Sequence record: PX418922.1
Reading direction: 5' to 3' (one strand)
DNA from: a phage
DNA: 64,000 nt
A program made the translations under genes and the position numbers. Below, piece after piece: positions 6,113 to 16,136 of the stretch (the stretch's first letter is position 1; each line of letters opens with the position of its first letter). A model generated the notes under the pieces. The model was not told the origin of the DNA and searched no databases. It worked only from the letters and a program-made list of their open reading frames with translations.

Positions 6113-6119
6113 TTATGCA

Positions 6120-6459: not shown

Positions 6460-6488
6460 AGTATAAGCCCTATCCCTGGGCTTGTCAA
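6460..6488 (-). promoter_or_regulatory. sigma70-like promoter on minus strand (TTGACA-N17-TATACT)
   Basis: On minus strand TTGACA (plus 6483-6488), 17-nt spacer, TATACT (plus 6460-6465); drives GC-rich transcript toward ~6250. Confidence 0.35.
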
Positions 6489-6490
6489 GA

Positions 6491-6757
6491 TTATTTTTTG
6501 TTTTCTTGCCAGGTCAGGACACCTAGCCAAAAATGAATATCACCTTTTCCCCAATGTGGTATATTGCTTTCTTTCCCACCTTCACGCGCCCAGGTAAAAC
6601 CGCCCGTGTAACTTTGTAATTGATAACTATCCTCGACCTTATAATCTGATAGGTTGAGAACGGTTTCAACCTTTAAGCCCGTTGCGCTTGCTACCTGGTG
6701 CACCGTGCCGCCTTGCCAGCCCAATGAGTGCATAAGATGTAATGTAGTATTTGTCAT
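6491..6757 (-). CDS. hypothetical protein (88 aa)
   Basis: Minus-strand ORF in the GC-rich block; RBS AAGGG and GC hairpin upstream; divergent from the plus-strand array. Confidence 0.4.
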   Translation of the reverse strand: MTNTTLHLMHSLGWQGGTVHQVASATGLKVETVLNLSDYKVEDSYQLQSYTGGFTWAREGGKESNIPHWGKGDIHFWLGVLTWQENKK

Positions 6758-6866
6758 GGTGTCGCCCTTTCTTTGTTGTGCGCCCTGGTTGGCGCGGTAG
6801 AAAGATGATAGCCCTTTCCTTTATATATAGCAAGCAAAAAGAAAATAAAAAAGATTGAAAAAGTGG

Positions 6867-6923
6867 TTGACGTTCGCCAGGTGGCGGCATAATATTTACC
6901 ACGTAGCGCGGCAATGGTGCCGC
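6867..6923 (+). promoter_or_regulatory. early promoter unit 1 with 5' hairpin
   Basis: TTGACG-N17-TAATAT; TTACCACGTAG start region; hairpin GCGGCA-ATGG-TGCCGC 6908-6923. Confidence 0.6.
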
Positions 6924-6944
6924 TCACTATTTGGAGTTAAGATC

Positions 6945-7142
6945 ATGGCAACATTGCACATTGTGGCGAAAGCTGGACAAATCAACGTAATAGTAAACGG
7001 TTTTACTGAGTTCAGTCATCCCCAGGATGATCATGAAACGGTTTTATCTTTCATTGATTCCCTGTTAGAAATGGGAGTCATTACAGAAGACCAGCACGCT
7101 ACAAAATGCAAGCGCGTTAATCAAATTGCAGGGATAGAATAA
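6945..7142 (+). CDS. hypothetical early protein (65 aa)
   Basis: ATG 6945 after RBS GGAG downstream of unit 1. Confidence 0.5.
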   Translation: MATLHIVAKAGQINVIVNGFTEFSHPQDDHETVLSFIDSLLEMGVITEDQHATKCKRVNQIAGIE

Positions 7143-7148
7143 AAAGTA

Positions 7149-7203
7149 TTGACAACAAACAACAACCTGATAAGATGTATCACATAGGGGCGACAAGCGC
7201 CCC
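7149..7203 (+). promoter_or_regulatory. early promoter unit 2 with 5' hairpin
   Basis: TTGACA-N16-TAAGAT; GTATCACATAGGG; hairpin GGGGCG-ACAAG-CGCCCC 7187-7203. Confidence 0.6.
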
Positions 7204-7227
7204 GCCTAACAGAAGAGAGAAATCATC

Positions 7228-7500
7228 ATGGCATCATATAGCGCAACAATGATCGTAACTGGCACCACTGGTAAACCTATGAGCGGTGGCGGATCTTTCG
7301 CTAATATTAATATTGACGGGCGCTTATCCCTGGACGCAGCGATCACCGTGGCGCGGGAAACATTTAAGAAAGAATGTAAATTCAATAAACAAGATTATCT
7401 CGGTTTCGCTATTGAAAAAACCGCGCGCTTTGTTGATTATAAAAGCCCGAAAATGGTTGATACTACACTGAAAGCGCAAGATGTAGCCTTTTTGCTTTAA
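7228..7500 (+). CDS. hypothetical early protein (90 aa)
   Basis: RBS AGAGAGAAATCATC-ATG; follows unit 2. Confidence 0.55.
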   Translation: MASYSATMIVTGTTGKPMSGGGSFANINIDGRLSLDAAITVARETFKKECKFNKQDYLGFAIEKTARFVDYKSPKMVDTTLKAQDVAFLL

Positions 7501-7503
7501 GGC

Positions 7504-7559
7504 TTGACATTAACGAATAATTTGTTAATATGTTACATAAAGCGGGAATAGTTCCCGCT
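7504..7559 (+). promoter_or_regulatory. early promoter unit 3 with 5' hairpin
   Basis: TTGACA-N16-TAATAT; hairpin AGCGGGAA-TAG-TTCCCGCT 7541-7559. Confidence 0.55.
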
Positions 7560-7576
7560 ATTTGTAAGGTGGTAGA

Positions 7577-7834
7577 ATGTTTTACATCAAATTAAAAGGT
7601 CACGTGATCGCGTTCAAAGATAACGCTTTTTACAGATTAGCAAAATATGCGTTAATACATCCCCACTATGTTTATATAAGGGGGCGTGATGAAATAAATA
7701 TTTTTGATCAAACAACATGCGAAAACATCGAGATCCGCAAGGTTGGCGTACGTGATTATCGTACATCTTTCTACCCTTGCAAGGATTCAGCAAGTCTTTT
7801 TAAAGTATGCCAATTGTTGAAAAAAGGTGGTTAA
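7577..7834 (+). CDS. hypothetical early protein (85 aa)
   Basis: RBS AAGGTGG before ATG. Confidence 0.55.
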   Translation: MFYIKLKGHVIAFKDNAFYRLAKYALIHPHYVYIRGRDEINIFDQTTCENIEIRKVGVRDYRTSFYPCKDSASLFKVCQLLKKGG

Positions 7835-7835
7835 T

Positions 7836-8393
7836 ATGGGCCGCGAATATGTGATCCAGTCTTGGGTAAAACATGAAGCAGATGATCCGCGCATCATTCC
7901 CGATCATCTTATCGATGAATCCACGGGATATAGCGGTGAGCAAATAGGTAACAGATTAGCACGTAGTAACGGCAACGTAAAAGCGCGTTATGTGCGCCCT
8001 GGCTGGCTGGCAAATGGTAACGCTGATTTATCCAGTGCGGAAGATGCGAGCGACGGCGCGAAAGATAATCCTTTGTACAAAATTGATCCGGCTTTTCGTG
8101 TCCTGGATGAATACCCCAGCAAGATAGCGGCGCTCGATCAGGCCCTGGAAAGTAAGCGCATCACCTGGACCGCTTACAACATGGCAAAAAACGTACTTGA
8201 TGGTAAATTGATTCAAGCTGAAAGAAAATTAGCCAAAATTGCAGCCATAACCCAGGAGGAAGACGAGGAGACAACGGAAGAGGAAGAGTACGAAGAGATC
8301 CCGCCGTTGTTGTGTGTTGATGCTTTCCCTGATTATCAGCCGACAGAGGAAGAAAAAAGGATCGCACTAGAAAACTTTGAAAATAGTCTTTGA
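7836..8393 (+). CDS. hypothetical protein with acidic C-terminal region (185 aa)
   Basis: RBS AAAGGTGG before ATG 7836; acidic tract EEDEETTEEEEYEE. Confidence 0.55.
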   Translation: MGREYVIQSWVKHEADDPRIIPDHLIDESTGYSGEQIGNRLARSNGNVKARYVRPGWLANGNADLSSAEDASDGAKDNPLYKIDPAFRVLDEYPSKIAALDQALESKRITWTAYNMAKNVLDGKLIQAERKLAKIAAITQEEDEETTEEEEYEEIPPLLCVDAFPDYQPTEEEKRIALENFENSL

Positions 8394-8446
8394 CATATCG
8401 CCGCCACTGGCATAATATTTACCACGTAGGGCGGCAATGGTGCCGC
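8390..8446 (+). promoter_or_regulatory. early promoter unit 4 with 5' hairpin
   Basis: TTGACA-N17-TAATAT; TTACCACGTAGGG; hairpin GCGGCA-ATGG-TGCCGC 8431-8446. Confidence 0.6.
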
Positions 8447-8475
8447 TCATAGTGAAATTATGCAAGAGGTTTGCA

Positions 8476-8571
8476 ATGATTAATAAAGAAAATAGCTTGA
8501 CGGTTGGAACGATTAACGCTATCATTCTTGCCGTTCCATTTTGGATTGTATTAGCGGCTATTATTTTCTAA
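8476..8571 (+). CDS. small membrane peptide (31 aa)
   Basis: RBS AAGAGG; hydrophobic INAIILAVPFWIVLAAIIF; sits between unit 4 and unit 5. Confidence 0.4.
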   Translation: MINKENSLTVGTINAIILAVPFWIVLAAIIF

Positions 8572-8580
8572 AAAATATTC

Positions 8581-8641
8581 TTGACAACGTTTTTTAATCT
8601 GATAAGATGTATCACATAGGGCGGCGGAATACTTCCCCGCC
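8581..8641 (+). promoter_or_regulatory. early promoter unit 5 with 5' hairpin
   Basis: TTGACA-N16-TAAGAT; GTATCACATAGGG; hairpin GGCGGCGGAA-TACT-TCCCCGCC 8619-8641. Confidence 0.6.
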
Positions 8642-8662
8642 AAAACAAAAAAGGGTAACACA

Positions 8663-9025
8663 ATGAGCAAGCAAATCAATACTATCATGTTTAATCTGGT
8701 ATCTTTCCGCGATGATATGAAAAATTTACCACGTGAAACGGTTGATATTCATGTTTCAGCTTATCGCGCCCTTATTGATATGTTACCGCTAAAACGTGAT
8801 CAACATGCCGCTAATATGATGCTTAATGCTATGCTTAAAAAGATGATTCAAACGGATCTCACCCTGGCGTATGAGTATCAAGGGCGCTTATATGCAACTT
8901 ACAACAAGGCGGTACCTGGTCTGGGAAGTACCGAAGAGTTGCACGGCTTAAACCTGGATCAAAACACTTGGGATAGTATGCGCCGCGTTATGGTATGGGC
9001 CGAAAGCGGTAAAATTTACGAATAA
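8663..9025 (+). CDS. hypothetical early protein (120 aa)
   Basis: RBS AAAAGGG before ATG. Confidence 0.55.
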   Translation: MSKQINTIMFNLVSFRDDMKNLPRETVDIHVSAYRALIDMLPLKRDQHAANMMLNAMLKKMIQTDLTLAYEYQGRLYATYNKAVPGLGSTEELHGLNLDQNTWDSMRRVMVWAESGKIYE

Positions 9026-9031
9026 AAACGG

Positions 9032-9091
9032 TTGACATTGTTTAAAATTCTAGTATAGTTTACCACATAGGGCGGGAAGTGGTTTCCCGCC
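9032..9091 (+). promoter_or_regulatory. early promoter unit 6 with 5' hairpin
   Basis: TTGACA-N16-TATAGT; TTACCACATAGGG; hairpin GGCGGGAA-GTGGT-TTCCCGCC 9071-9091. Confidence 0.6.
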
Positions 9092-9113
9092 AACAATGAA
9101 AAAGGTTATCATC

Positions 9114-9479
9114 ATGGCTATTAATATTAATGTTTCCGCTTATGCTACCCTGGCTAACACGGCTAAAATTGAATTATCCAGCATTGAGGCGGTGCATATT
9201 AGCGCCCGTCGCTGGTTTCAACGGTCCTACGGTAACACATATTTTTCTTTAATGGTTGACGTTGAGATCGGCGGTAAACTGATCGAGGTGGTTAACGTTC
9301 CGTTTCAATATGGCTATGGTGATCATTTTGATACCGTCGCCCTAGAAGAGTTTAGCAAGGTTATCAACCTGGAAGGTAAAGAGTTTTCAAATTATGCCTA
9401 CCTTTCCCGTTTTTGCCGTGACAATGGGATCACTGTATACAGTCATGCGAGCGATGTAAAACGTAAAAAAGATTTATAA
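9114..9479 (+). CDS. hypothetical early protein (121 aa)
   Basis: ATG 9114 preceded by conserved AAAAAGGT..ATC context; alternative in-frame ATG at 9096. Confidence 0.5.
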   Translation: MAININVSAYATLANTAKIELSSIEAVHISARRWFQRSYGNTYFSLMVDVEIGGKLIEVVNVPFQYGYGDHFDTVALEEFSKVINLEGKEFSNYAYLSRFCRDNGITVYSHASDVKRKKDL

Positions 9480-9485
9480 AAAGCA

Positions 9486-9545
9486 TTGACAGCACGAATA
9501 AAAAGAGTAAACTGTATTACATAGAGAGCGGGAACACTTCCCGCC
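9486..9545 (+). promoter_or_regulatory. early promoter unit 7 with 5' hairpin
   Basis: TTGACA-N16-TAAACT; GTATTACATAGAG; hairpin GCGGGAA-CAC-TTCCCGC 9528-9544. Confidence 0.6.
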
Positions 9546-9568
9546 TCACTGAAAAAGAGAGAAAAATC

Positions 9569-9808
9569 ATGGCTAAATCTAAAATGTACAACGGTCACAA
9601 AAACAAAACTCATTGGAATGTAAGCCTTTGGATTAATAACGATGAATCGTTATACCGGTTGGCCCAAGATTTTATTAACGCTAATGCTAATCGTAATGAT
9701 GCGGCGCGGGATATGATGCTTTTTCTGGAACAAACTGGACAAGATAAAACGCCAGACGGTTTCAAATATAGCACTACTGCGATCCGTGCCGCGATGGTTG
9801 GAATGTAA
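9569..9808 (+). CDS. hypothetical early protein (79 aa)
   Basis: RBS AAGAGAGAAAAATC-ATG. Confidence 0.55.
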   Translation: MAKSKMYNGHKNKTHWNVSLWINNDESLYRLAQDFINANANRNDAARDMMLFLEQTGQDKTPDGFKYSTTAIRAAMVGM

Positions 9809-9817
9809 TAAAAACAG

Positions 9818-9877
9818 TTGACAACGTTTAAAATTAGTGTAAGATGTATCACATAGGGCGGGAAGTGGTTTCCCGCC
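9818..9877 (+). promoter_or_regulatory. early promoter unit 8 with 5' hairpin
   Basis: TTGACA-N16-TAAGAT; GTATCACATAGGG; hairpin GGCGGGAA-GTGGT-TTCCCGCC 9857-9877 (identical to unit 6). Confidence 0.6.
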
Positions 9878-9898
9878 AAAACAAAGAGATTAAAGATT

Positions 9899-10126
9899 AT
9901 GGCTATCAATATTGTTCGCGTATCCGGCACCGTTGGCACTTCCCAGGTTATTGCAGTTGTAACAAACAAAAAGATTAATGATGTATGTGAGATCTTGAAT
10001 AAGTGGGCTATTGCTAATTTTGGGGAATATGCAAGCGTCGAGTACATCGAATCCTACCAGGTGCCAACCATCAGCCTAACCGATCTCAACGTTGATCGCC
10101 TGTTATGCCTGGATGAATTGATCTGA
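9899..10126 (+). CDS. hypothetical early protein (75 aa)
   Basis: RBS AAAGAGA..ATT-ATG after unit 8. Confidence 0.55.
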   Translation: MAINIVRVSGTVGTSQVIAVVTNKKINDVCEILNKWAIANFGEYASVEYIESYQVPTISLTDLNVDRLLCLDELI

Positions 10127-10135
10127 AAAAGATTG

Positions 10136-10191
10136 TTGACACCGGAAAGAAAAAGAGTAAACTGTATTACGTAGGGCGGCAATGGTGCCGC
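10136..10191 (+). promoter_or_regulatory. early promoter unit 9 with 5' hairpin
   Basis: TTGACA-N16-TAAACT; GTATTACGTAGGG; hairpin GCGGCA-ATGG-TGCCGC 10176-10191. Confidence 0.6.
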
Positions 10192-10216
10192 TCACAACAA
10201 AAGAGAGATTATTACG

Positions 10217-10429
10217 ATGGCTAATATCCGCACACTGTTAAAAAATGCAAGTCAAGTTTTATTTTCAGATGACGAGTATTTCAATAAAGACATTACAGGC
10301 GTGAAGAATATCAAAGATGTAAAAAGTGTTATGGGTATATATTGCAATGTTAAACGTGTTGGAACGTTCGGTGATAAAGTATTGTACCAATCAGGTGATT
10401 ACAATTTTACTTTGACGATTATTTCATAA
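10217..10429 (+). CDS. hypothetical early protein (70 aa)
   Basis: RBS AAGAGAGA before ATG. Confidence 0.55.
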   Translation: MANIRTLLKNASQVLFSDDEYFNKDITGVKNIKDVKSVMGIYCNVKRVGTFGDKVLYQSGDYNFTLTIIS

Positions 10430-10434
10430 AACGC

Positions 10435-10496
10435 TTGCAATACTGCAAAAATAAAGTAAACTGTATTACATCAAGGCGGCGGAATGGTCCACCGCC
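10435..10496 (+). promoter_or_regulatory. early promoter unit 10 with 5' hairpin
   Basis: TTGCAA-N16-TAAACT; GTATTACATCAAGG; hairpin GGCGGCGGA-ATGG-TCCACCGCC 10475-10496. Confidence 0.55.
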
Positions 10497-10520
10497 TAAC
10501 AAAGAGAAGAGGAAAATATC

Positions 10521-10688
10521 ATGATCACTTTCGCTACCCGTGAAGCCGCTCGCAACGTTGCACGTAAAGTTAACGCCGCCAACCTGGGCGCTACTTTTAA
10601 AGCGCCTGTAAAAGATGAATCAGGAAAATGGATCTTCCCTGGTCTGCGTCACGCTGATAAGCTAGGCACTTTAAGCCTTAAAAAATAA
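10521..10688 (+). CDS. small basic protein (55 aa)
   Basis: RBS AGAGGAAAATATC-ATG; first 16 nt of coding sequence identical to the next ORF (ATGATCACTTTCGCTA). Confidence 0.45.
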   Translation: MITFATREAARNVARKVNAANLGATFKAPVKDESGKWIFPGLRHADKLGTLSLKK

Positions 10689-10691
10689 TCG

Positions 10692-10729
10692 TTGACTTTT
10701 CGTTATAGCGCCCATTATAAGGCGCTATA
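10692..10729 (+). promoter_or_regulatory. early promoter unit 11 (variant hairpin)
   Basis: TTGACT-N17-TTATAA; 9-bp inverted repeat TATAGCGCC..GGCGCTATA 10705-10729 overlaps the -10 region. Confidence 0.45.
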
Positions 10730-10762
10730 GAGAAGAGAAACCACTACTAACAAGGAAACATC

Positions 10763-10984
10763 ATGATCACTTTCGCTATTGTCGCCGTTGTCGCTGGTCA
10801 GGTTTACGTAAACGATACATTCACCACAGAAGACAAGGCCGCAGGAGACATAACCGCCGTTTACAATGAGTGCAAGGCAGTAGAAAGGATGTTAGCGCCT
10901 TGTATGTTAATGAGTGAACGCCAGGACGGGATAACAGTGTTTACTAACATTGAAACAGGGTACCAAATGGTAGTAACAAAATAA
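10763..10984 (+). CDS. hypothetical early protein (73 aa)
   Basis: RBS-like AAGGAAA; N-terminus MITFA shared with previous small ORF. Confidence 0.5.
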   Translation: MITFAIVAVVAGQVYVNDTFTTEDKAAGDITAVYNECKAVERMLAPCMLMSERQDGITVFTNIETGYQMVVTK

Positions 10985-10987
10985 AGC

Positions 10988-11044
10988 TTGACACGGATTT
11001 AATTTTCAGTAAACTGTTACACGTAGGGCGGGAATAGTTCCCGC
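10988..11044 (+). promoter_or_regulatory. early promoter unit 12 with 5' hairpin
   Basis: TTGACA-N16-TAAACT; GTTACACGTAGGG; hairpin GGCGGGAA-TAG-TTCCCGC 11027-11044. Confidence 0.6.
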
Positions 11045-11062
11045 TAAAAAGAGAGAAAGACC

Positions 11063-11416
11063 ATGAAAGCACAAAATGCAATTAAAGAGTACATCCTTGC
11101 CGCTATCGATTTTAATGATTACGGTATTACAACCGAAAAAGAGAAGATCGCGGAATTGATGCGCCGTTTTAATTCCGAGTACTGGTACCCTGATAATCAA
11201 TCACGTTTTAATTATAGTATTGTTAAAGCACTTGCATCATGGTTACAAGGCTTGCCATCAGATATTAATATAGCTTTCGAATATTGGGAAATTGATCGTT
11301 TGTTAACATCCTGGGGATACATTAAAGAGAATAGCAGCGATGATAAAATCCAACGAGAAAGGGAAAATTATTGGCTTTATATTGCAGGCGTGATCCTTGC
11401 TTGCTCTTATGAATGA
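11063..11416 (+). CDS. hypothetical early protein (117 aa)
   Basis: RBS AAGAGAGAAAGACC-ATG. Confidence 0.55.
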   Translation: MKAQNAIKEYILAAIDFNDYGITTEKEKIAELMRRFNSEYWYPDNQSRFNYSIVKALASWLQGLPSDINIAFEYWEIDRLLTSWGYIKENSSDDKIQRERENYWLYIAGVILACSYE

Positions 11417-11422
11417 TAAACC

Positions 11423-11476
11423 TTGACAATTTTACAAAACAGTTTAAATTAATAATATAGCGGCAATGGTGCCGCT
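11423..11476 (+). promoter_or_regulatory. early promoter unit 13 with 5' hairpin (spacing atypical)
   Basis: TTGACA then TAAATT or TAATAT; hairpin GCGGCA-ATGG-TGCCGC 11460-11475 lies closer to -10 than in other units. Confidence 0.4.
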
Positions 11477-11495
11477 CATATAAAGAGGAAACAAA

Positions 11496-11642
11496 ATGAA
11501 TACATCTAATCGCGCAGAAAAAATTCAATCTTCCAAGATCCGCAAGGCCTGGAATGAGGAAGTGATCCGCAAAGGCGACAAGCGCAATAAAACAAAGCGC
11601 GGGAAGAGTGACAAATATAATTGGATGGATTTAGAGGATTAA
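11496..11642 (+). CDS. small basic protein (48 aa)
   Basis: RBS AAGAGGAAACAAA-ATG; Lys/Arg-rich; followed by terminator. Confidence 0.45.
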   Translation: MNTSNRAEKIQSSKIRKAWNEEVIRKGDKRNKTKRGKSDKYNWMDLED

Positions 11643-11650
11643 CATAACAA

Positions 11651-11676
11651 GGGCGCACCAAGCGCCCTTTCTTTTT
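11651..11676 (+). terminator. rho-independent terminator
   Basis: GGGCGCACCAAGCGCCC hairpin followed by TTTCTTTTT. Confidence 0.65.
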
Positions 11677-11697
11677 ACATGTAGAGGATAAACAAAA

Positions 11698-11883
11698 ATG
11701 ACTTTAAACGAGCTTAAAACAGCCTATAACGCAACATTAAAAATAGCCGTGCGTTACCGTGACGAATACGGTTTTATTGCGCAGGGCGTGATCCTGGGCT
11801 TTTCTGACGATGGTTTGATCTATGTTGATGCACATCACAACAAGGTTAAACCGGAAAACGTTATCAGTATAAAATATCTTTAA
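11698..11883 (+). CDS. hypothetical protein (61 aa)
   Basis: RBS GAGGATAAACAAAA-ATG. Confidence 0.5.
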   Translation: MTLNELKTAYNATLKIAVRYRDEYGFIAQGVILGFSDDGLIYVDAHHNKVKPENVISIKYL

Positions 11884-11889
11884 AAGTGG

Positions 11890-11946
11890 TTGACACCATA
11901 ACCGGACCTGTTAAACTGTATTACATCAGGCGGGGAATAGTTCCCC
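11890..11946 (+). promoter_or_regulatory. early promoter unit 14 with 5' hairpin
   Basis: TTGACA-N16-TAAACT; GTATTACATCAGG; hairpin GGGGAA-TAG-TTCCCC 11929-11946. Confidence 0.55.
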
Positions 11947-11969
11947 AACCATACAAAAAGGTAAATATT

Positions 11970-12176
11970 ATGATCACCGCAAAACAAGAAAAAATCATTA
12001 TCGACGTTGCAGCCGTTGCCGCTATTGCTATTATTGGATCTTATTATGATACCCGTTTCCCGTCGGCTATGCATGAGATCGCCGCCGTTGCATCAGTTGG
12101 CGTGCTGTTTTACGTTGGTAAACGCTATTTATCACCAATGATTAACAAGCTGACACCGTGGAAAAATAAAGGTTGA
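11970..12176 (+). CDS. small membrane protein (68 aa)
   Basis: ATG 11970 preceded by AAAAAGGTAAATATT; hydrophobic IIIDVAAVAAIAIIGSYY. Confidence 0.5.
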   Translation: MITAKQEKIIIDVAAVAAIAIIGSYYDTRFPSAMHEIAAVASVGVLFYVGKRYLSPMINKLTPWKNKG

Positions 12177-12230
12177 TCCTGTTTTATATTGTGTTATAGT
12201 TATCGTGTAGGGCGGCAATGGTGCCGCGCC
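12173..12230 (+). promoter_or_regulatory. early promoter unit 15 with 5' hairpin
   Basis: TTGATC-N16-TATAGT; TATCGTGTAGGG; hairpin GCGGCA-ATGG-TGCCGC 12212-12227. Confidence 0.5.
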
Positions 12231-12247
12231 CCTTTGAGGATGCAATC

Positions 12248-12532
12248 ATGAGTAAAGCTAACACCGTGCTAATGTTTTCCCTGATTAATGATCCCGCTTA
12301 CTTGTCCAACATGACGCAGGAGGGTAACACATTAACGGCAACATTCACCAATAAGCTTGACCGAGTGATCATCATCTCACTGAAAACAGTTAGTAAAGGC
12401 TTTTACTCGTTAGCTTATCATTGGATCACTGATACCGATGAGACAAGCCAGGACTATAGCGCCCCTTTCCCTGAATCAATGGCACGGGAGATCATCGCCG
12501 CCGTTGTAAATGATGGTTTGTTTACTGCATAA
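12248..12532 (+). CDS. hypothetical early protein (94 aa)
   Basis: RBS GAGGATGCAATC-ATG. Confidence 0.5.
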   Translation: MSKANTVLMFSLINDPAYLSNMTQEGNTLTATFTNKLDRVIIISLKTVSKGFYSLAYHWITDTDETSQDYSAPFPESMAREIIAAVVNDGLFTA

Positions 12533-12549
12533 ATAATTTAGAAAAAGGC

Positions 12550-12606
12550 TTGCAATCATTTTGAGATAGTGTATATTTAATTCATAGGGCGGCGGGAATA
12601 GTTCCC
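12550..12606 (+). promoter_or_regulatory. early promoter unit 16 with 5' hairpin
   Basis: TTGCAA-N16-TATATT; TTCATAGGG; hairpin GGGAA-TAG-TTCCC 12587-12606. Confidence 0.5.
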
Positions 12607-12629
12607 AAAGCAAACGAGAGGATTACACG

Positions 12630-12749
12630 ATGAGCAAGTACACAGTAGAATACACGGTAGAGAATCCGGCAGTATCCGAAGGTAAAAAGATGACATTTGC
12701 CATCAGTATAATCGCTTTCGTTGTCACTATCTTATCAATCATCTTATAA
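12630..12749 (+). CDS. small membrane peptide (39 aa)
   Basis: RBS GAGAGGATTACACG-ATG; hydrophobic C-terminus AISIIAFVVTILSIIL. Confidence 0.4.
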   Translation: MSKYTVEYTVENPAVSEGKKMTFAISIIAFVVTILSIIL

Positions 12750-12759
12750 GGTACACACC

Positions 12760-12921
12760 ATGAAAATAACAGACATTATCAAAGAGATCGCCCTTGCCGC
12801 TGGCGTTGAAGTCGAGGAAGTGATCGCGCTCAATCTTACAGAAAACGATCTGCGCAACTATGAAGCGGAAAGCGTGAAAGCAAGCGGCGCGGTCCTGGTA
12901 TATGATCCGGCTAACAAGTAA
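12760..12921 (+). CDS. hypothetical small protein (53 aa)
   Basis: ATG 12760 with weak AAGG RBS. Confidence 0.4.
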   Translation: MKITDIIKEIALAAGVEVEEVIALNLTENDLRNYEAESVKASGAVLVYDPANK

Positions 12922-12930
12922 GGGGGTAAC

Positions 12931-13041
12931 ATGAATCCGAAAGATATGCAAGCATGGAAAGGGTACGACGATCTAAGCGCCTTGCGCAATAAGTCAAGCC
13001 GTAACTTTAGACGGTTGGAAGCAAAGAAAAAGAAAAAATAG
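12931..13041 (+). CDS. small basic peptide (36 aa)
   Basis: RBS AAGGGGG before ATG 12931; Lys-rich C-terminus. Confidence 0.35.
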   Translation: MNPKDMQAWKGYDDLSALRNKSSRNFRRLEAKKKKK

Positions 13042-13042
13042 T

Positions 13043-13098
13043 TTGACAAGTCCGCCTAGTCTGATAATATGTATCTTGTAGGGCGGCAATGGTGCCGC
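13043..13098 (+). promoter_or_regulatory. early promoter unit 17 with 5' hairpin
   Basis: TTGACA-N16-TAATAT; GTATCTTGTAGGG; hairpin GCGGCA-ATGG-TGCCGC 13083-13098. Confidence 0.6.
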
Positions 13099-13119
13099 TC
13101 ACAAGAAGAGAGAAAAATC

Positions 13120-13404
13120 ATGAAAATTACAAAAAGCCTAACTAATTATGCAGCACGTCGCGGATTATGTTTAACCGTTGAAAACTTAGGGAAAGAAGAC
13201 TTTTTGTGTTTTTGGGAGCTTGAGAATGATTGCGAGTGGATGTTTTCTTATTCTATCTGCGAAGATCAAAACGGTTGTTTGTTAACCTGGCGCGGTAATA
13301 TCTATTTACCGGAAGAAATTAAAGAAGAGTTACCAGGTACGATCATGACAGAGAGACAGCTTAAGGAAGTGATCAATTTTGTAGGGCAAAACATTAAAAA
13401 ATAA
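13120..13404 (+). CDS. hypothetical early protein (94 aa)
   Basis: RBS AGAAGAGAGAAAAATC-ATG. Confidence 0.55.
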   Translation: MKITKSLTNYAARRGLCLTVENLGKEDFLCFWELENDCEWMFSYSICEDQNGCLLTWRGNIYLPEEIKEELPGTIMTERQLKEVINFVGQNIKK

Positions 13405-13405
13405 T

Positions 13406-13466
13406 TTGACAGCAGGCAAACAACGTAGTAAAGTTTACCACATAGGGCGGCGGAATGGTCCACCGC
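13406..13466 (+). promoter_or_regulatory. early promoter unit 18 with 5' hairpin
   Basis: TTGACA-N17-TAAAGT; TTACCACATAGGG; hairpin GGCGGCGGA-ATGG-TCCACCGC 13446-13466. Confidence 0.55.
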
Positions 13467-13489
13467 TCACAACAGAAGAGAAACAAATC

Positions 13490-13660
13490 ATGATCCCGAC
13501 TATGTTTTATGTATCGCGCAAAGGTCACAATATTTTTTGGTCTGAAGATTTAAATGAAGCTATGACGTTTGCCCGTGATCGTGTTGCTATCGGTGGCGTT
13601 AACATCACCGTAACCGATGAAAATGGCATTGAATACTATAACGGCGACGATGAAGAATAA
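13490..13660 (+). CDS. hypothetical early protein (56 aa)
   Basis: RBS AGAAGAGAAACAAATC-ATG. Confidence 0.5.
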   Translation: MIPTMFYVSRKGHNIFWSEDLNEAMTFARDRVAIGGVNITVTDENGIEYYNGDDEE

Positions 13661-13667
13661 TTAATGA

Positions 13668-13688
13668 GGCGGGGGAGTATTCCCCGCC
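13668..13688 (+). promoter_or_regulatory. 5' UTR hairpin without a clear -35/-10
   Basis: GGCGGGGGA-GTAT-TCCCCGCC stem-loop 20 nt before RBS of 13708 gene; promoter hexamers not convincing. Confidence 0.35.
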
Positions 13689-13707
13689 GTCAATAAAGAG
13701 GTAAATC

Positions 13708-13977
13708 ATGAAAATATCATTAGACGTTGCAATCAAGGCCATCGAATCCGGTTACACCCTGGTAAAAGATGATAAGGCTAAAACCGTGCACCACGTTAAC
13801 AAAGAAACAGGCGAAAGCATGATCACATATAAAGCCGCCTACTTTCTCCAATCAGTAGCAGATCCGCGCGTACAACGCCAGGTTACAGCGGCTATTGCTA
13901 AAAAATTATGTGCTTTACAGGGCACAAGTTTTAACGAGATCGCCCCGTGTTTTGACTGGTCGAGCTTGAAAAAATAG
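13708..13977 (+). CDS. hypothetical early protein (89 aa)
   Basis: RBS AAAGAGGTAAATC-ATG. Confidence 0.55.
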   Translation: MKISLDVAIKAIESGYTLVKDDKAKTVHHVNKETGESMITYKAAYFLQSVADPRVQRQVTAAIAKKLCALQGTSFNEIAPCFDWSSLKK

Positions 13978-13978
13978 T

Positions 13979-14040
13979 TTGACAACAATTATAAATCGGG
14001 TAGAATGTATTTCGTAGGGCGGGGCAATGGTGCAACGCCT
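13979..14040 (+). promoter_or_regulatory. early promoter unit 20 (degenerate hairpin)
   Basis: TTGACA-N16-TAGAAT; GTATTTCGTAGGG; weaker stem GGCG...CGCC 14018-14040. Confidence 0.5.
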
Positions 14041-14058
14041 ACTAATGAGGGTAAAATC

Positions 14059-14163
14059 ATGTTAGAGAAAATTTTCACGGTTGTAGTAGTGGGCCTGGTG
14101 TTATCGGTTGGAGTGGTTGCAACTATGGCTAACATGATCCTATCTTCCCACGGTATTGGATAA
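14059..14163 (+). CDS. small membrane peptide (34 aa)
   Basis: RBS GAGGGTAAAATC-ATG; hydrophobic FTVVVVGLVLSVGVVATMANMIL. Confidence 0.4.
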   Translation: MLEKIFTVVVVGLVLSVGVVATMANMILSSHGIG

Positions 14164-14173
14164 GGTGAATCAA

Positions 14174-14389
14174 ATGATCACGAATAAGACAGGTAAAACA
14201 GAATTTTTACGCGCCTTGCAGATCGGCAAGCCTGAGATCTGGCATTGCACTAAATCCGCGCATAATGAAATGAAAGATTTTACCGCTACTTTACAACGTG
14301 TTAAAATATCTATCACACAGAAAAAAGCCTTGTTAGTAGTAGAAAACGAGATCCCGCAAACTATTATTATTGTCGAGCGTACAGCATGA
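14174..14389 (+). CDS. hypothetical protein (71 aa)
   Basis: RBS AAGGTG before ATG 14174; alternative TTG start at 14156. Confidence 0.5.
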   Translation: MITNKTGKTEFLRALQIGKPEIWHCTKSAHNEMKDFTATLQRVKISITQKKALLVVENEIPQTIIIVERTA

Positions 14390-14772
14390 AAACAGAAATC
14401 ATTATTGAAATCATCAACGGTTATAAAGAAGCCTTTATTTTTGCTGAATCAGCAAGGGATCATGAAGGTAATTTTATTGATAACTTAGACGATTATGATT
14501 TTTCTCCTAGCGTGGATCAACGGATCGCCCAGGATGTAACAGCCTTTATTAATGCTAATCTTGCCGCTATCTCTGAGGCAATGAGCGACGGCGCAACAGC
14601 CAACCAGATCGGGAATGATTTACATTTTACCCGTAACGGTCACGGCGTAGGCTTTTGGGATCGCCCTGAAATATACACCACTAACACGGCGAACCGCCTA
14701 ACCAATGCAGCTAAGTTTATGCCGAACGTGTCGGCTTACATTGGTGAAGATAATTTGATTTATATTGAATAA
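14386..14772 (+). CDS. hypothetical protein (128 aa)
   Basis: ATGA overlap with upstream ORF. Confidence 0.55.
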   Translation: MKTEIIIEIINGYKEAFIFAESARDHEGNFIDNLDDYDFSPSVDQRIAQDVTAFINANLAAISEAMSDGATANQIGNDLHFTRNGHGVGFWDRPEIYTTNTANRLTNAAKFMPNVSAYIGEDNLIYIE

Positions 14773-14778
14773 AAAGTA

Positions 14779-14837
14779 TTGACACCGATCCCCAATATGG
14801 TACTATTTACCACGTAGGCGGGAAATGGTTTCCCGCC
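14779..14837 (+). promoter_or_regulatory. early promoter unit 21 with 5' hairpin
   Basis: TTGACA-N16-TACTAT; TTACCACGTAGG; hairpin GGCGGGAAA-TGG-TTTCCCGCC 14817-14837. Confidence 0.6.
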
Positions 14838-14860
14838 AGGTAATCAAAAAGGTAAATACT

Positions 14861-15250
14861 ATGCGCAACCTGGTTTCTGTTTCTAACGTTGAAAAATTTC
14901 AATCTTTACAGGGTATCGTTAACAACGTAGCGCCTTTTTTAGTCAACGGCTTGATTGCAAAGATGAAAAATAAACATCATGCGGCATGGTCTGCTTACTG
15001 CTTTGATAATGATGAAAAAGCGGCTGAAATGATGTTAAATATGCTGTTAGACAGTGTAGAATCATCTTTACCGGAAAACATCGCAGAAGAGATCACCTAT
15101 CGTTATAATATGGCGATCACTTACCAGGAGGTTGCGCAATTTAATATGATGGACGATGACGAACAACAGGATCAGGAAATGTTTTGGGAGTATGCTGATC
15201 GTCAATCGGCTTTTGATGAAAAATTAGCGATGTATTATAACGAATATTAA
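14861..15250 (+). CDS. hypothetical early protein (129 aa)
   Basis: ATG 14861 preceded by AAAAAGGTAAATACT. Confidence 0.55.
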   Translation: MRNLVSVSNVEKFQSLQGIVNNVAPFLVNGLIAKMKNKHHAAWSAYCFDNDEKAAEMMLNMLLDSVESSLPENIAEEITYRYNMAITYQEVAQFNMMDDDEQQDQEMFWEYADRQSAFDEKLAMYYNEY

Positions 15251-15266
15251 TACACGGTAAAAGAAA

Positions 15267-15290
15267 GGGGCGCACTAAGCGCCCTTTTTT
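15267..15290 (+). terminator. rho-independent terminator
   Basis: GGGGCGCACTAAGCGCCC hairpin followed by TTTTTT. Confidence 0.7.
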
Positions 15291-15635
15291 GTATTCTTTT
15301 TTCACGATGGAAACAACACGTAAAGAATAGGCGTAAAGGTGGCGTAAAACCATCTAAAACCGACTGTAACCGCTTAAACAAGGTAGGAATGATTAATCAC
15401 CTTGCCAGGATGAAAAAGCCGTTATAAAGCTATCTAGAGCGTTTAAAGCACATAGGAAATAATTTGCTTTTTATCTTGCCTTTTACCCTGCTTTTGATTA
15501 TTATTATGGAACGGGCGGCACCTGGAGACAGGGGAAGATAATCACCGGAAGATCCCGCTATATATTGATAGCTAATACCTATTAAACAACAAAACATCAA
15601 AGGAATAAACTATCAAATCTTTACAATTCTACCTA

Positions 15636-15670
15636 TTGACACCGGATCGCCCTTATACTAAGATGTATCA
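15636..15670 (+). promoter_or_regulatory. early promoter unit 22 (no GC hairpin)
   Basis: TTGACA-N17-TAAGAT; GTATCACGTAGGG conserved start region but downstream hairpin absent. Confidence 0.5.
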
Positions 15671-15710
15671 CGTAGGGCAAATGATTTTAAACGGTAAACG
15701 AGGAATCACC

Positions 15711-16094
15711 ATGAGCAATATCATCAACCTGGCAGCGACTGTAAACGGTAAAGACTTTAACGGCGCTGTAGACCGTGATCCTATGTGGTACTTGTCAGTG
15801 TTTAAAGGCGATCTGGTTGAAGTTAGAACAACCGAAGGGTATAGCGATGATTATAAATGCGAGATTCATTTACATAATTGGTACACGGGTAAAACTTATG
15901 CGCTGAATCACGCGTTTATCGGAAAAATCGAATATCGTGAGATGATCGACGAAGAAACGGGGCAAGATTTTAGCGAAAACGTTTATATTCGTTCCGAGAC
16001 ATTAGCCGAACGTTTGATCGAGAAAATGAAAGCAAAAAATAAAATTAATTTATCTCATTGGATTGATATAACAAACGATCCAGCTTATCAGTAA
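15711..16094 (+). CDS. hypothetical early protein (127 aa)
   Basis: RBS CGAGGAATCACC-ATG. Confidence 0.55.
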   Translation: MSNIINLAATVNGKDFNGAVDRDPMWYLSVFKGDLVEVRTTEGYSDDYKCEIHLHNWYTGKTYALNHAFIGKIEYREMIDEETGQDFSENVYIRSETLAERLIEKMKAKNKINLSHWIDITNDPAYQ

Positions 16095-16110
16095 ATAACA
16101 TTTCATACCA

Positions 16111-16136
16111 GGGCGCACAAAGCGCCCTTTCTTTTT
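16111..16136 (+). terminator. rho-independent terminator
   Basis: GGGCGCACAAAGCGCCC hairpin followed by TTTCTTTTT. Confidence 0.7.

What the first reader, a model, noticed from the sequence alone, without database searches (positions are those of the whole stretch)
6867..15670. Array of ~21 early transcription units, each a sigma70-type promoter with a structurally conserved 5' hairpin
Between 6.8 and 15.7 kb nearly every small ORF has its own TTGACA / 16-17 nt / TAAGAT-TAAACT-TAATAT promoter, a conserved start region ((T)ACCAC(A/G)TAGGG or GTAT(C/T)ACATAGGG), and immediately after it a GC-rich stem-loop. The stems differ in sequence (GCGGCA/TGCCGC, GCGGGAA/TTCCCGC, GGGGCG/CGCCCC, GGGGA/TCCCC, TATAGCGCC/GGCGCTATA) while pairing is kept, which argues for selection on structure. 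A conserved RBS context (AGAGAGAAAAATC-ATG) follows. If transcription starts about 7 nt after the -10, each early mRNA begins with a stable 5'-terminal hairpin, a known way to block 5'-end-dependent decay. Alternatives are a recognition element for a phage factor or an attenuator. I cannot match this promoter-hairpin consensus to any phage promoter class I can name.
Basis: partly seen in the sequence, partly recalled or inferred. Interest (0 to 1): 0.8.

Follow-up and report, generated by a model that had tools for sequence, protein, structure and literature searches.

The report
Phage early promoter–hairpin cassette array
About twenty near-consensus host-type promoters in a 9-kb stretch of an E. 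coli phage genome are each followed at a fixed distance by a small GC-rich hairpin that would sit at the front of every early message; this is a real, conserved variant of the promoter/stem-loop cassettes known from T4-like phages, and its function is untested.

Summary
The window comes from a phAPEC8-like E. coli myovirus (Phapecoctavirus). On the + strand, 6867-15664 holds 21 sigma70-type promoters. Nineteen are followed by a conserved start region, CAC(A/G)TAGGG, and a GC-rich hairpin whose base lies mostly 10-12 nt after the -10. One has its hairpin over the -10 and one has none.

The hairpins have no U-tract, whereas three real terminators in the same array do. The promoter spacers are unconserved while the start region and hairpin are conserved. 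The stems share an invariant GCGG/CCGC core, and their inner and outer pairs change in a compensatory way.

The same layout is found in phi92, WPEC1, Citrobacter Tr1 and Klebsiella FBKp34, and more weakly in rV5-like phages. Cassette gains, losses and swaps between relatives end at these elements.

The closest known kind is the PeSL (promoter-early stem-loop) of T4-like phages. There the stem-loop lies upstream of or inside the promoter and acts as a terminator. Here it is transcribed into every 5' UTR.

The most likely role is protection of early mRNA ends, but 3-4 unpaired 5' nucleotides make a pure 5'-block marginal. A conserved loop motif, U(G/A)G, leaves room for recognition by a factor. 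No transcript data exist. I rate this a new variant of a known kind, of moderate interest.

The parts
6867..6947 (+). Unit 1: -35 TTGACG 6867-6872, 17-nt spacer (itself a small GC hairpin, 6874-6887), -10 TAATAT 6890-6895, TTACCACGTAGC, hairpin 6908-6923 (GCGGCA/ATGG/TGCCGC), ATG 6945
7149..7230 (+). Unit 2: TTGACA-16-TAAGAT, GTATCACATAG, hairpin 7187-7203 (GGGGCG/ACAAG/CGCCCC; no GCGG core), ATG 7228
7504..7579 (+). Unit 3: TTGACA-16-TAATAT, hairpin 7541-7559 (AGCGGGAA/TAG/TTCCCGCT), ATG 7577
8390..8478 (+). Unit 4: TTGACA-17-TAATAT, TTACCACGTA, hairpin 8429-8448 (GGGCGGCA/ATGG/TGCCGCTC), ATG 8476
8581..8665 (+). Unit 5: TTGACA-16-TAAGAT, GTATCACATAG, bulged hairpin 8620-8641 (GGCGG[C]GGAA/TAC/TTCCCCGCC), ATG 8663
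9032..9116 (+). Unit 6: TTGACA-16-TATAGT, TTACCACATAG, hairpin 9071-9091 (GGCGGGAA/GTGGT/TTCCCGCC), ATG 9114; cassette-indel breakpoint against tuntematon at 9114-9121
9486..9571 (+). Unit 7: TTGACA-16-TAAACT, hairpin 9528-9544 (GCGGGAA/CAC/TTCCCGC, extendable to 9524-9547), ATG 9569
9818..9901 (+). Unit 8: TTGACA-16-TAAGAT, hairpin 9857-9877, ATG 9899
10136..10219 (+). Unit 9: TTGACA-16-TAAACT, hairpin 10174-10193; the GU..AC extension pairs the predicted first nucleotide; ATG 10217
10435..10523 (+). Unit 10: TTGCAA-16-TAAACT, hairpin 10474-10497 (AGGCGG[C]GGA/ATGG/TCC[A]CCGCCT), ATG 10521
10692..10765 (+). Unit 11 (atypical): TTGACT, hairpin 10703-10730 (TTATAGCGCC/GGCGCTATAG) enclosing the -10-like TATAAG; this is the RB49-PeSL-like layout; ATG 10763
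   Evidence: PMC2839356 for the layout
10988..11065 (+). Unit 12: TTGACA-16-TAAACT, hairpin 11027-11045, ATG 11063
11423..11498 (+). Unit 13: TTGACA-16-TAAATT, hairpin 11459-11476, ATG 11496
11649..11677 (+). True intrinsic terminator inside the array: AAGGGCGCACCAAGCGCCCTT followed by TCTTTTT
11890..11972 (+). Unit 14: TTGACA-16-TAAACT, hairpin 11932-11946 (GGGGAA/TAG/TTCCCC), ATG 11970
12173..12250 (+). Unit 15: TTGATC-16-TATAGT, hairpin 12212-12227, ATG 12248
12550..12632 (+). Unit 16: TTGCAA-16-TATATT, degenerate 5-bp hairpin 12594-12606 (the 3' arm of the outer stem is lost), ATG 12630
13043..13122 (+). Unit 17: TTGACA-16-TAATAT, hairpin 13081-13100, extendable to the predicted first nucleotide, ATG 13120
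13406..13483 (+). Unit 18: TTGACA-17-TAAAGT, hairpin 13445-13468 with a C.A mismatch, ATG 13481
13668..13710 (+). Promoter-less hairpin of the same family (GGCGGGGGA/GTA/TTCCCCGCC, 13668-13688), 7 nt after the upstream stop codon, ATG 13708; conserved in L008 and L013
13979..14062 (+). Unit 19: TTGACA-16-TAGAAT, hairpin 14014-14042 (GTAGG..CCTAC outer stem, internal loop, GCA/ATGG/TGC), ATG 14060
14779..14863 (+). Unit 20: TTGACA-16-TACTAT, hairpin 14817-14837 (GGCGGGAAA/TGG/TTTCCCGCC), ATG 14861
15262..15300 (+). True intrinsic terminator closing the array (GGGGCGCACTAAGCGCCCTTTTTT)
15636..15713 (+). Unit 21: TTGACA-17-TAAGAT, GTATCACGTAGGGC, no hairpin; also hairpin-less in phi92 and WPEC1; ATG 15711 (Gp30.8-like gene by synteny with phi92 gp248)
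16110..16136 (+). True intrinsic terminator after unit 21 (AGGGCGCACAAAGCGCCCT followed by TTCTTTTT)

Best explanation
The region is the early-gene ('hyperplastic') array of a phAPEC8-like E. coli myovirus. Each small gene of unknown function carries a self-contained expression cassette. Its parts, in order, are an A-rich upstream tract, a near-consensus sigma70 promoter, a conserved start region, a GC-rich hairpin, an A-rich unstructured leader, a weak Shine-Dalgarno sequence and the ATG.

Host RNA polymerase most likely starts at the purine of CAC-R-UAGGG. The hairpin is then the first structured element of every early mRNA, beginning 0-4 nt from the 5' end.

I think the hairpin most likely works at the RNA level as an end-protecting stabiliser. 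[quoted passage not shown] In read-through or processed transcripts it would be a barrier that defines and protects cistron ends.

Because the roughly 80-nt cassette is repeated about 20 times, it also provides the homology at which gene cassettes are gained, lost and swapped between related phages.

Shown: the anatomy, its statistics, its conservation, the compensatory changes, the absence of a U-tract and the cassette-boundary mosaicism. Inferred: the start site, early timing and the stabilising role.
For: Identity of the window: 95-97% identical to Phapecoctavirus genomes.

Promoters: far above chance and confined to one strand of the array.

Conservation profile over 78 distinct elements: the -35, the -10 (TA...T), positions 5-13 after the -10 and the GCGG are conserved, while the 16-nt spacer carries about 0 bits. 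Unconstrained sites are therefore saturated, and the start region and hairpin are under selection.

Position: the hairpin base sits 10-12 nt after the -10 in the window, phi92, WPEC1, Citrobacter Tr1 and rV5-like I29, even where the intervening sequence differs.

Pairing: in a core-anchored alignment of 38 distinct variants, 5 of 11 populated pairs have changes on both sides (GC/CG/UA, AU/GC). The covariation score is 0.201 against 0.092 in shuffles (0 of 500 reach it) and 0.05 or less in slid registers.

Strand: all 19 wobble cells are G on the 5' arm and T on the 3' arm, so they pair only in the + strand transcript. Orthologous changes include C.A to U-A and A-U to G.U.

Fold: the predicted 5' UTRs form one 5'-proximal hairpin followed by an open leader; z is -2.3 or lower in 15 of 19.

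Not terminators: the 10 nt after the stem are 58% A, with a mean of 1.1 T in 8 nt. The three real terminators of the array have 5-7 T.

Independent example: a - strand promoter at 56499 has the same layout with an unrelated stem.

Cassette boundaries: alignment breakpoints against 11 related loci fall in the elements 18 of 43 times against 9.8 expected (p = 0.004), and most of the rest fall at gene junctions.

Background from the literature: 5' stem-loops stabilise ompA and papA mRNAs, and a 5' leader stabilises T4 gene 32 mRNA (references listed in PMC3997798 and PMC8948821). RNase E is a major agent of T4 early mRNA decay (PMC3014915).
Against: No transcript 5' or 3' ends are available for this phage group (searches found none).

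With the inferred start site most hairpins leave 3-4 unpaired nucleotides. That is enough for RppH (BsRppH needs at least 2 and prefers 3 or more, PMC3997798). RNase E also steps past orthogonal stem-loops (PMC9943677).

The invariant GCGG/CCGC core and the loop motif U(G/A)G (26 of 38 variants against about 2 expected) are more sequence conservation than simple stability needs.

The promoter of unit 21 is stably hairpin-less in three lineages, and many rV5-like early promoters have no hairpin. The hairpin is therefore not obligatory.

Part of the uniformity could be concerted evolution by recombination between copies rather than selection on each copy.
Confidence: 0.5

Rival explanations
1. 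PeSL-type terminator or attenuator. The hairpin stops or damps transcription arriving from the upstream unit, or prematurely ends transcripts from its own promoter. Each small gene would then be insulated and dosed separately, as proposed for the stem-loops of RB49/phi1 PeSLs.
For: In RB49 a PeSL stem-loop reduced lacZ read-through as much as rrnB T1 (PMC2839356). The GenBank record MZ726793 annotates these very hairpins as 'rho-independent terminator predicted by WebGeSTer', each directly after a 'promoter'. Terminators inside 5' UTRs are common in Pseudomonas phages (PMC10914365). Unit 11, and the spacers of units 1 and 4, have RB49-like hairpin positions.
Against: There is no U-tract: a mean of 1.1 T in the 8 nt after the stem, and the tails are 58% A. 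The same array uses three canonical terminators of a different hairpin family with 5-7 T. The hairpin lies after the start site, so it would also abort its own transcript about 25 nt in. In T4-like PeSLs the stem-loop is upstream of or within the promoter. The strict phasing to the -10 has no rationale for a terminator.
Confidence: 0.12
2. Recognition element. The hairpin (GCGG/CCGC core, U(G/A)G loop), perhaps together with the conserved start region, is bound by a phage or host factor. That factor would treat all early transcripts as one regulon. It could, for example, shut them off at the early-to-middle switch, exempt them from phage-induced mRNA decay, or modify RNA polymerase as nut or put RNAs do.
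For: Sequence conservation exceeds what structure needs. The four core pairs are invariant in 38 variants. The loop motif T[GA]G occurs in 26 of 38 variants against about 1.9 expected, while the promoter spacers are randomised. The loops are not the extra-stable UUCG or GNRA types used by this genome's terminators. The position just after the start site resembles nut and put sites of lambdoid phages (own knowledge; the HK022 put paper PMC9378689 was listed).
Against: No candidate binding protein was identified. All array ORFs fall in PHROG families of unknown function and nothing relevant was found in the flanks. Several units use quite different stems and loops (7187-7203; Tr1 GGCGCA/CAA/TGCGCC and GGGGA/ATAA/TCCCC). 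Stem length, bulges and loop size vary. The conserved core may reflect common descent and gene conversion. The boxA-like CGCTCACAAC occurs in a minority of units and is partly inside the stem.
Confidence: 0.2
3. The repeat matters mainly at the DNA level. The cassettes are portable homology (and possibly cruciform) sites for recombination that shuffles early genes. The hairpin is carried along or serves as the crossover point, with little RNA-level function.
For: Cassette insertions, deletions and replacements against tuntematon, ECO340P1, SKA64, phi92 and WPEC1 end in or beside the elements. WPEC1 carries the same cassettes in two arms of opposite orientation. Homology runs into the first codons (ATGGCT; ATGATCACTTTCGCTA). 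In RB49 a crossover was mapped to the stem-loop's loop (PMC2839356).
Against: Homology-driven exchange does not require a palindrome, nor compensatory maintenance of pairing. G.T pairs are tolerated on one strand only, which points to RNA. The hairpin position is kept relative to the -10 in lineages where the flanking sequence has diverged. Breakpoint positions from BLAST only show where similarity ends, not where crossovers occurred.
Confidence: 0.1

Closest known systems
PeSLs (promoter-early stem-loops) of T4-like myoviruses RB49/phi1, T4/PST and KVP40/nt-1 (Arbiol et al. 2010, PMC2839356; Comeau et al. 2014, PMC4122927)
   Same: These are repeated composite intergenic cassettes of roughly 80-100 nt in hyperplastic early regions. 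Each has an AT-rich upstream tract, a strong sigma70-like promoter, a GC-rich stem-loop, a Shine-Dalgarno sequence and a start codon. They flank small ORFans and coincide with insertions, deletions and replacements between close relatives.
   Different: In PeSLs the stem-loop lies just upstream of the promoter (PST, nt-1) or between or over the -35 and -10 (RB49/phi1), and it is described as a terminator. Here it lies at a fixed position after the -10 and the start site in 19 of 21 units, has no U-tract, and is part of every 5' UTR. The phage lineage is unrelated (Stephanstirmvirinae). The stem consensus differs (GCGG..CCGC rather than Gn-loop-Cn). Mini-circles were not tested.
5'-terminal stabiliser hairpins of E. 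coli and phage mRNAs: ompA hp1, papA, the T4 gene 32 leader and the T7 gene 10 leader (own knowledge, plus references listed in PMC3997798 and PMC8948821)
   Same: A stable stem-loop at or within a few nucleotides of the 5' end, followed by an open leader and ribosome-binding site, and expected to hinder 5'-end-dependent decay.
   Different: Those are single, individually studied leaders. Here one design is reused on about 20 promoters and across a phage subfamily. Most copies would leave 3-4 unpaired nucleotides, so protection is uncertain, and nothing has been measured.
Intrinsic (rho-independent) terminators
   Same: A GC-rich stem of 6-9 bp with a short loop. One public record annotates these hairpins as terminators.
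   Different: No 3' U-tract. They lie downstream of a start site. The genuine terminators of the same array are a separate sequence family with T-runs.
Promoter-proximal RNA elements that modify RNA polymerase (lambda/P22 nut boxB, HK022 put)
   Same: A small hairpin transcribed soon after an early promoter.
   Different: Those occur twice per genome rather than about 20 times. boxB has a 5-bp stem and a GNRA-like pentaloop with boxA upstream, and put is a roughly 70-nt two-stem RNA. No N-like protein or boxA consensus was found here.

Membership tests
PeSL (promoter-early stem-loop cassette) | Strong sigma70-like early promoter with an AT-rich tract upstream of the -35 | tested here: met
   TTGACA-16/17-TAnnnT with an A-rich tract (consensus AAAAAAA) ending 3-4 nt upstream of the -35
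PeSL (promoter-early stem-loop cassette) | Stable GC-rich stem-loop as part of the same compact intergenic element, ending in a Shine-Dalgarno sequence and a start codon | tested here: met
   Hairpins of -8 to -16 kcal/mol, then the leader, ribosome-binding site and ATG within about 45-50 nt
PeSL (promoter-early stem-loop cassette) | Stem-loop placed upstream of, between, or over the promoter boxes, so that it ends upstream transcription before the new start | tested here: not met
   In 19 of 21 units the stem starts 9-15 nt after the -10. Only unit 11 (10703-10730) overlaps the -10.
PeSL (promoter-early stem-loop cassette) | Stem-loop acts as a transcription terminator or attenuator | not testable with these tools
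   The sequence argues against it (no U-tract). Reporter assays or Term-seq are needed.
PeSL (promoter-early stem-loop cassette) | Clustered in hyperplastic regions next to ORFans and associated with indels between close relatives | tested here: met
   All ORFs tested fall in PHROG families of unknown function. Cassette indels and replacements end at the elements.
PeSL (promoter-early stem-loop cassette) | Recombination between flanking copies yields excised mini-circles | not testable with these tools
   Requires inverse PCR on phage DNA
5'-terminal mRNA stabiliser hairpin | The hairpin lies inside the transcript, downstream of the start site | tested here: inconclusive
   It follows from the -10 position: the start is expected 6-9 nt after it and the hairpin begins at 10-12. 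No start site has been mapped.
5'-terminal mRNA stabiliser hairpin | [quoted passage not shown] | tested here: inconclusive
   With the start at position 8, 0-2 nucleotides are unpaired in units 1, 3, 9, 13, 15, 17 and 19, and 3-4 in most of the others. The result depends on the unmapped start site.
5'-terminal mRNA stabiliser hairpin | Stem disruption shortens mRNA half-life and compensatory restoration rescues it | not testable with these tools
   Experimental
Intrinsic terminator | GC-rich hairpin immediately followed by a U-rich tract | tested here: not met
   Mean 1.1 T (maximum 4) in the 8 nt after the stem, across 38 variants. The terminators at 11649, 15262 and 16110 have 5-7 T.
Curated RNA families (Rfam 15) | Match at gathering score to any family | tested here: not met
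   0 matches in the whole window
nut-type antitermination site | boxA consensus upstream of a 5-bp boxB hairpin with a GNRA-like pentaloop | tested here: not met
   Read directly from the sequence. Stems are 6-9 bp and loops are AUGG, UGG or UAG. Only a partial boxA-like CGCUCACAAC is present, it lies downstream, and it occurs in a minority of units.

The most novel reading that the evidence does not exclude
The hairpin, with its invariant GCGG/CCGC core and U(G/A)G-containing loop, is a cis-acting RNA tag. Placed at the front of about 20 early transcripts and conserved across Stephanstirmvirinae, it would let a dedicated phage or host factor recognise early messages as a class. Such a factor could spare them from infection-induced mRNA decay, silence them together at the early-to-middle switch, or alter the transcribing polymerase.
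Probability: 0.2. Interest if true: 0.7.

Novelty: new variant of a known kind. Interest (0 to 1): 0.45.

Why it matters
Large virulent coliphages of the phAPEC8/phi92/rV5 group are widely isolated for therapy, but their early gene expression has not been studied.

A single reusable promoter-plus-5'-hairpin design on about 20 early genes, kept across several genera by compensatory change, gives a clean and easily mutated system. It could be used to ask how phages protect or time their first messages while host RNases remain active.

The finding also extends the PeSL idea (regulatory cassettes that double as recombination modules) to an unrelated phage lineage, with the stem-loop moved into the transcript.

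On the practical side, it shows that annotation pipelines mislabel these hairpins as terminators. It also offers compact, strong, insulated expression cassettes for E. coli.

Tried and rejected
1. Covariance model. MAFFT alignments of the real sequences (A1, A3) put the two arms in inconsistent registers, either loop-anchored or 5'-anchored, so no honest consensus structure could be given to cmbuild. I built a core-anchored, N-padded structural alignment instead (A2) and counted pairs on it. Because that alignment selects pairs by construction, its 100% paired figure is meaningless. Only the pair types, the shuffles and the slid registers are informative.

2. Base-anchored alignment of stem types. 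Rejected, because a one-nucleotide register shift of the shared GGCGG creates false compensatory changes.

3. Rfam. No family matched.

4. Literature on hairpins or promoters in phAPEC8, phi92 or rV5 phages, and on transcriptomes of this group. Nothing was found. The rV5 paper lists promoters only. The phi92 and PVP-SE1 papers are not held.

5. A link to an Srd-like RNase E activator (rV5 gp11 is called an Srd homologue). No such family appeared among the 30 window ORFs scanned, so this was dropped.

6. boxA/boxB (Nus) reading of CCGCUCACAACA. Rejected: it is a minority subfamily, is one nucleotide short of the consensus, and lies partly inside the stem.

7. An apparent promoter plus GGCGG hairpin on the - strand at 44671. 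It lies in the end of an ORF and is followed by a normal terminator, so it is a chance match.

8. Palindromic operator for a dimeric DNA-binding repressor. Unlikely, because arm length, bulges and arm spacing vary.

Full report
**What the window is.** The 8.9 kb of the finding is 95-97% identical to many Phapecoctavirus (phAPEC8-like, Stephanstirmvirinae) genomes of about 150 kb. Examples are KKP 3954, anhysbys, ukendt and tuntematon. All ten larger ORFs tested in the array belong to PHROG families of unknown function. The array lies between two non-coding, repeat-rich stretches at 5.7-6.5 kb and 16.2-17.7 kb. In phi92 the syntenic array (gp225-gp248) runs up to about 1.1 kb before the right terminal repeat. 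I therefore read the array as the early, host-polymerase-dependent region next to a genome end. That timing is inferred, not shown.

**Checking the observation.**
- The exact pattern TTGACA-N16/17-TANNNT occurs 24 times in the window against 2.6 expected (0 of 100 shuffles reach 24). Sixteen of these are on the + strand at 7149-15664.
- With five sites carrying one or two -35 mismatches (6867, 10435, 10692, 12173, 12550) there are 21 units.
- ACRTAGGGCGG occurs 10 times against 0.49 expected, only in the array and only on the + strand.
- Nineteen units have a hairpin after the -10. Unit 11 has its hairpin over the -10, and unit 21 has none.
- Among exact-consensus promoters, 15 of 16 in the array have the hairpin against 0 of 8 elsewhere (p = 1.2e-5).
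- The finding's coordinates and motifs are therefore right.
- Four corrections apply. Most stems share a GCGG/CCGC core. The TATAGCGCC hairpin sits differently from the others. The 'AGAGAGAAAAATC' leader describes only about a third of the units. A promoter-less copy of the hairpin exists at 13668-13688.

**Anatomy.** Each unit is anchored on the -10 and reads as follows:
- an A-rich tract just upstream of the -35;
- the -35 TTGACA;
- an unconserved 16-nt spacer (17 nt in four units, 18 nt in unit 11);
- the -10 TAnnnT;
- GTATCAC or TTACCAC, then R-T-A-G-G;
- a hairpin;
- a tail that is 58% A;
- a weak Shine-Dalgarno sequence;
- the ATG about 40-50 nt from the inferred start.

The information profile over 78 distinct elements from the window and its relatives shows about 0 bits in the spacer. 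Conservation is strong at positions 5-13 after the -10 and in the GCGG. The copies have therefore diverged to saturation where they are free to do so, and the start region and hairpin are constrained. The alternative is that they are homogenised by gene conversion.

**Inferred start site.** Established rules for E. coli start-site choice are 6-9 nt after the -10, with a purine preceded by a pyrimidine (own knowledge). On these rules the start is most likely the R of CAC-R. That gives 5'-(A/G)UAGGG..., the 'AU' start typical of strong phage promoters.

**Is the pairing selected?** Hairpin variants fall into these types:
- GGGCGGCA/ATGG/TGCCGCTC;
- GGCGGGAA(A)/TGG, GTGGT or TAG/(T)TTCCCGCC;
- GGCGG[C]GGAA/TAC/TTCCCCGCC;
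- GGCGG[C]GGA/ATGG/TCC[A]CCGCC;
- GGGGCG/ACAAG/CGCCCC;
- a form whose outer stem, GTAGG..CCTAC, reaches the start site.

On a core-anchored alignment of 38 distinct variants, the four core pairs never vary. Five of the 11 populated pairs change on both sides, for example G-C 25, C-G 10 and U-A 2, or A-U 23 and G-C 12. The covariation score is 0.201, against 0.092 +/- 0.010 in shuffles (0 of 500 reach it) and 0.05 or less in slid registers.

The alignment was built by choosing pairs, so only these comparative measures count. The sequences are also related, which inflates shuffle tests.

Independent support comes from more distant relatives, which keep the layout with other stems. Citrobacter Tr1 has GGCGCA/CAA/TGCGCC, GGGGA/ATAA/TCCCC and GACGGGGGAA/ACGG/TTCCCCCGC. 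Klebsiella FBKp34 has GCGGTAA/TAG/TTATCGC. A - strand promoter in the window (56499) is followed by the unrelated stem GGGAGGA/TCCTCCC.

All 19 wobble cells are G(5' arm).T(3' arm), so they pair only in the + strand transcript. The C.A mismatch of one type is a partial counter-example. It is U-A in the phi92-like orthologues.

**Not terminators.** The 8 nt after the stems contain on average 1.1 T (maximum 4). The array's three genuine terminators (11649, 15262, 16110) belong to a different hairpin family, GGGCGCAC-N-AAGCGCCC, and are followed by 5-7 T. Elsewhere in the window, strong hairpins are ordinary terminators with GAAG or UUCG-type loops and T tails. The GenBank record of phage ASO2A nevertheless labels these hairpins 'rho-independent terminator predicted by WebGeSTer', each directly after a 'promoter'. 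The accompanying paper does not comment on this.

**Distribution.** The promoter-hairpin unit is present as follows:
- 12 times in the phi92 early region;
- in both arms of WPEC1, in opposite orientations;
- in IMG/VR contigs of 97-153 kb;
- in Tr1 and FBKp34;
- in rV5-like I29 only at some early promoters, and with shorter stems.

The first paired nucleotide is at position 11-12 after the -10 in every lineage. The promoter-less hairpin at 13668 is conserved in two other lineages. Unit 21's promoter is hairpin-less in phi92 and WPEC1 as well. The two components therefore usually travel together, but they are separable.

**Cassette mosaicism.** Against tuntematon, the window differs by whole-gene insertions or replacements. 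Their edges lie at 9114-9121 (the ATG of unit 6), 10743-10756, 12917-12919, 13714, 13969, 14829 and 15492. Over 11 related loci, 18 of 43 distinct alignment breakpoints fall inside the elements, which cover 22.8% of the region. The expectation is 9.8 (p = 0.004). Most other breakpoints lie at gene junctions within a few nucleotides of an element. This is the behaviour described for PeSLs. BLAST end-points show where similarity stops, not where exchange happened.

**Comparison with what is known.** PeSLs of RB49/phi1, T4/PST and KVP40/nt-1 are composite intergenic cassettes with the following parts:
- an AT-rich tract;
- a sigma70-like early promoter;
- a stem-loop;
- a Shine-Dalgarno sequence;
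- a start codon.

They are clustered in hyperplastic regions and implicated in modular shuffling. Their stem-loop lies just upstream of the promoter, or between or over its boxes, and it behaves as a terminator. The present elements share everything except the position and the likely role of the stem-loop, and they occur in an unrelated phage subfamily.

As for mechanism, 5'-proximal hairpins that stabilise mRNA are well known: ompA, papA, the T4 gene 32 leader and the T7 gene 10 leader (own knowledge, plus reference lists). However, RppH tolerates ends with two or three unpaired nucleotides (the requirement measured for BsRppH). RNase E readily passes an orthogonal stem-loop while scanning. 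The 3-4 unpaired nucleotides predicted for most units therefore make complete 5' protection doubtful. The hairpin could equally serve as a 3' barrier for the upstream cistron after cleavage in the A-rich leader. That reading fits the conserved promoter-less copy.

**What remains unexplained.** The invariant GCGG/CCGC core and the loop motif go beyond what stability requires. The motif T[GA]G occurs in 26 of 38 variants against about 2 expected, mostly as AAUGG or AGUGG. They keep open the possibility that a factor recognises the hairpin. No candidate factor was found.

**Verdict.** The element is a promoter-plus-5'-UTR-hairpin cassette, a new variant of the PeSL kind. It is conserved across Stephanstirmvirinae and partly in Vequintavirus. 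Transcript-end mapping and compensatory stem mutagenesis would settle it.

Noticed in passing
window 5700-6500: An AT-rich non-coding stretch with ordered repeats lies just upstream of the array. It has three units 29 nt apart (6126-6234, AATGAGA...CATTTAG, partly palindromic) and a 72-nt direct repeat (5904-5975 and 6042-6113). A consensus - strand promoter (6488-6460, TTGACA-17-TATACT) points into it. This could be an origin or operator region.
   Followed up: partly
window 16200-17700: About 1.5 kb has no ORF of 60 aa or more and many short direct and inverted repeats. By synteny with phi92, whose terminal repeat lies about 1.1 kb after the Gp30.8-like gene, this is probably the physical genome end or terminal-repeat region.
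   Followed up: partly
window 11649-11677, 15262-15300, 16110-16136: The three genuine terminators of the array form their own repeat family (GGGCGCAC-N-AAGCGCCC plus a T-run). Unit 2's hairpin (GGGGCGACAAGCGCCCC) resembles them more than it resembles the other promoter hairpins.
   Followed up: partly
window 56499-56416 (- strand): A consensus promoter (TTGACT-16-TATAAT) is followed 12 nt later by an unrelated hairpin, GGGAGGA/GGTGAG/TCCTCCC, then AAGGAG and an ATG. The layout matches the array units, but the stem is made of Shine-Dalgarno-like and anti-Shine-Dalgarno-like sequence.
   Followed up: partly
hairpin loops, e.g. window 8436-8441, 9079-9083, 13088-13093: Most loops display AUG or GUG (AAUGG, AGUGG). 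At 8437 the loop AUG is in frame with the downstream ORF. No explanation was found.
   Followed up: no
window 10521-10536 and 10763-10778: Two neighbouring ORFs begin with the identical ATGATCACTTTCGCTA, and several others begin with ATGGCT. Cassette homology evidently extends into the first codons, where an indel breakpoint (9114-9121) also lies.
   Followed up: partly
window 6001-16000 compared with its flanks: GC skew is 0.03-0.09 in the array against 0.19-0.25 in the + strand genes on either side, and AT skew is higher in the array. The array therefore has its own compositional signature.
   Followed up: no
window 27030-27707 (+); 3609-4595 and 20225-21277 (+): There is a serine-recombinase/DNA-invertase-like ORF (phrog_125) in an apparently virulent myovirus. 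There are also two paralogous endonuclease ORFs (phrog_681), one of them with an HNH match.
   Followed up: no
public records MG065650, MG065656 (labelled 'Campylobacter phage') and OP562383 (labelled 'Acinetobacter phage'): Records labelled as Campylobacter or Acinetobacter phages match this E. coli phage region closely (MG065650 at 96.4% and OP562383 at 97.6% over most of it; MG065656 at 86% on one 88-nt element). The host labels look doubtful.
   Followed up: no
L001 (MZ726793, phage ASO2A) 1248-5401: The public annotation places a 'rho-independent terminator' 10 nt after each 'promoter' at these cassettes. This is an artefact of terminator predictors that do not require a U-tract.
   Followed up: yes
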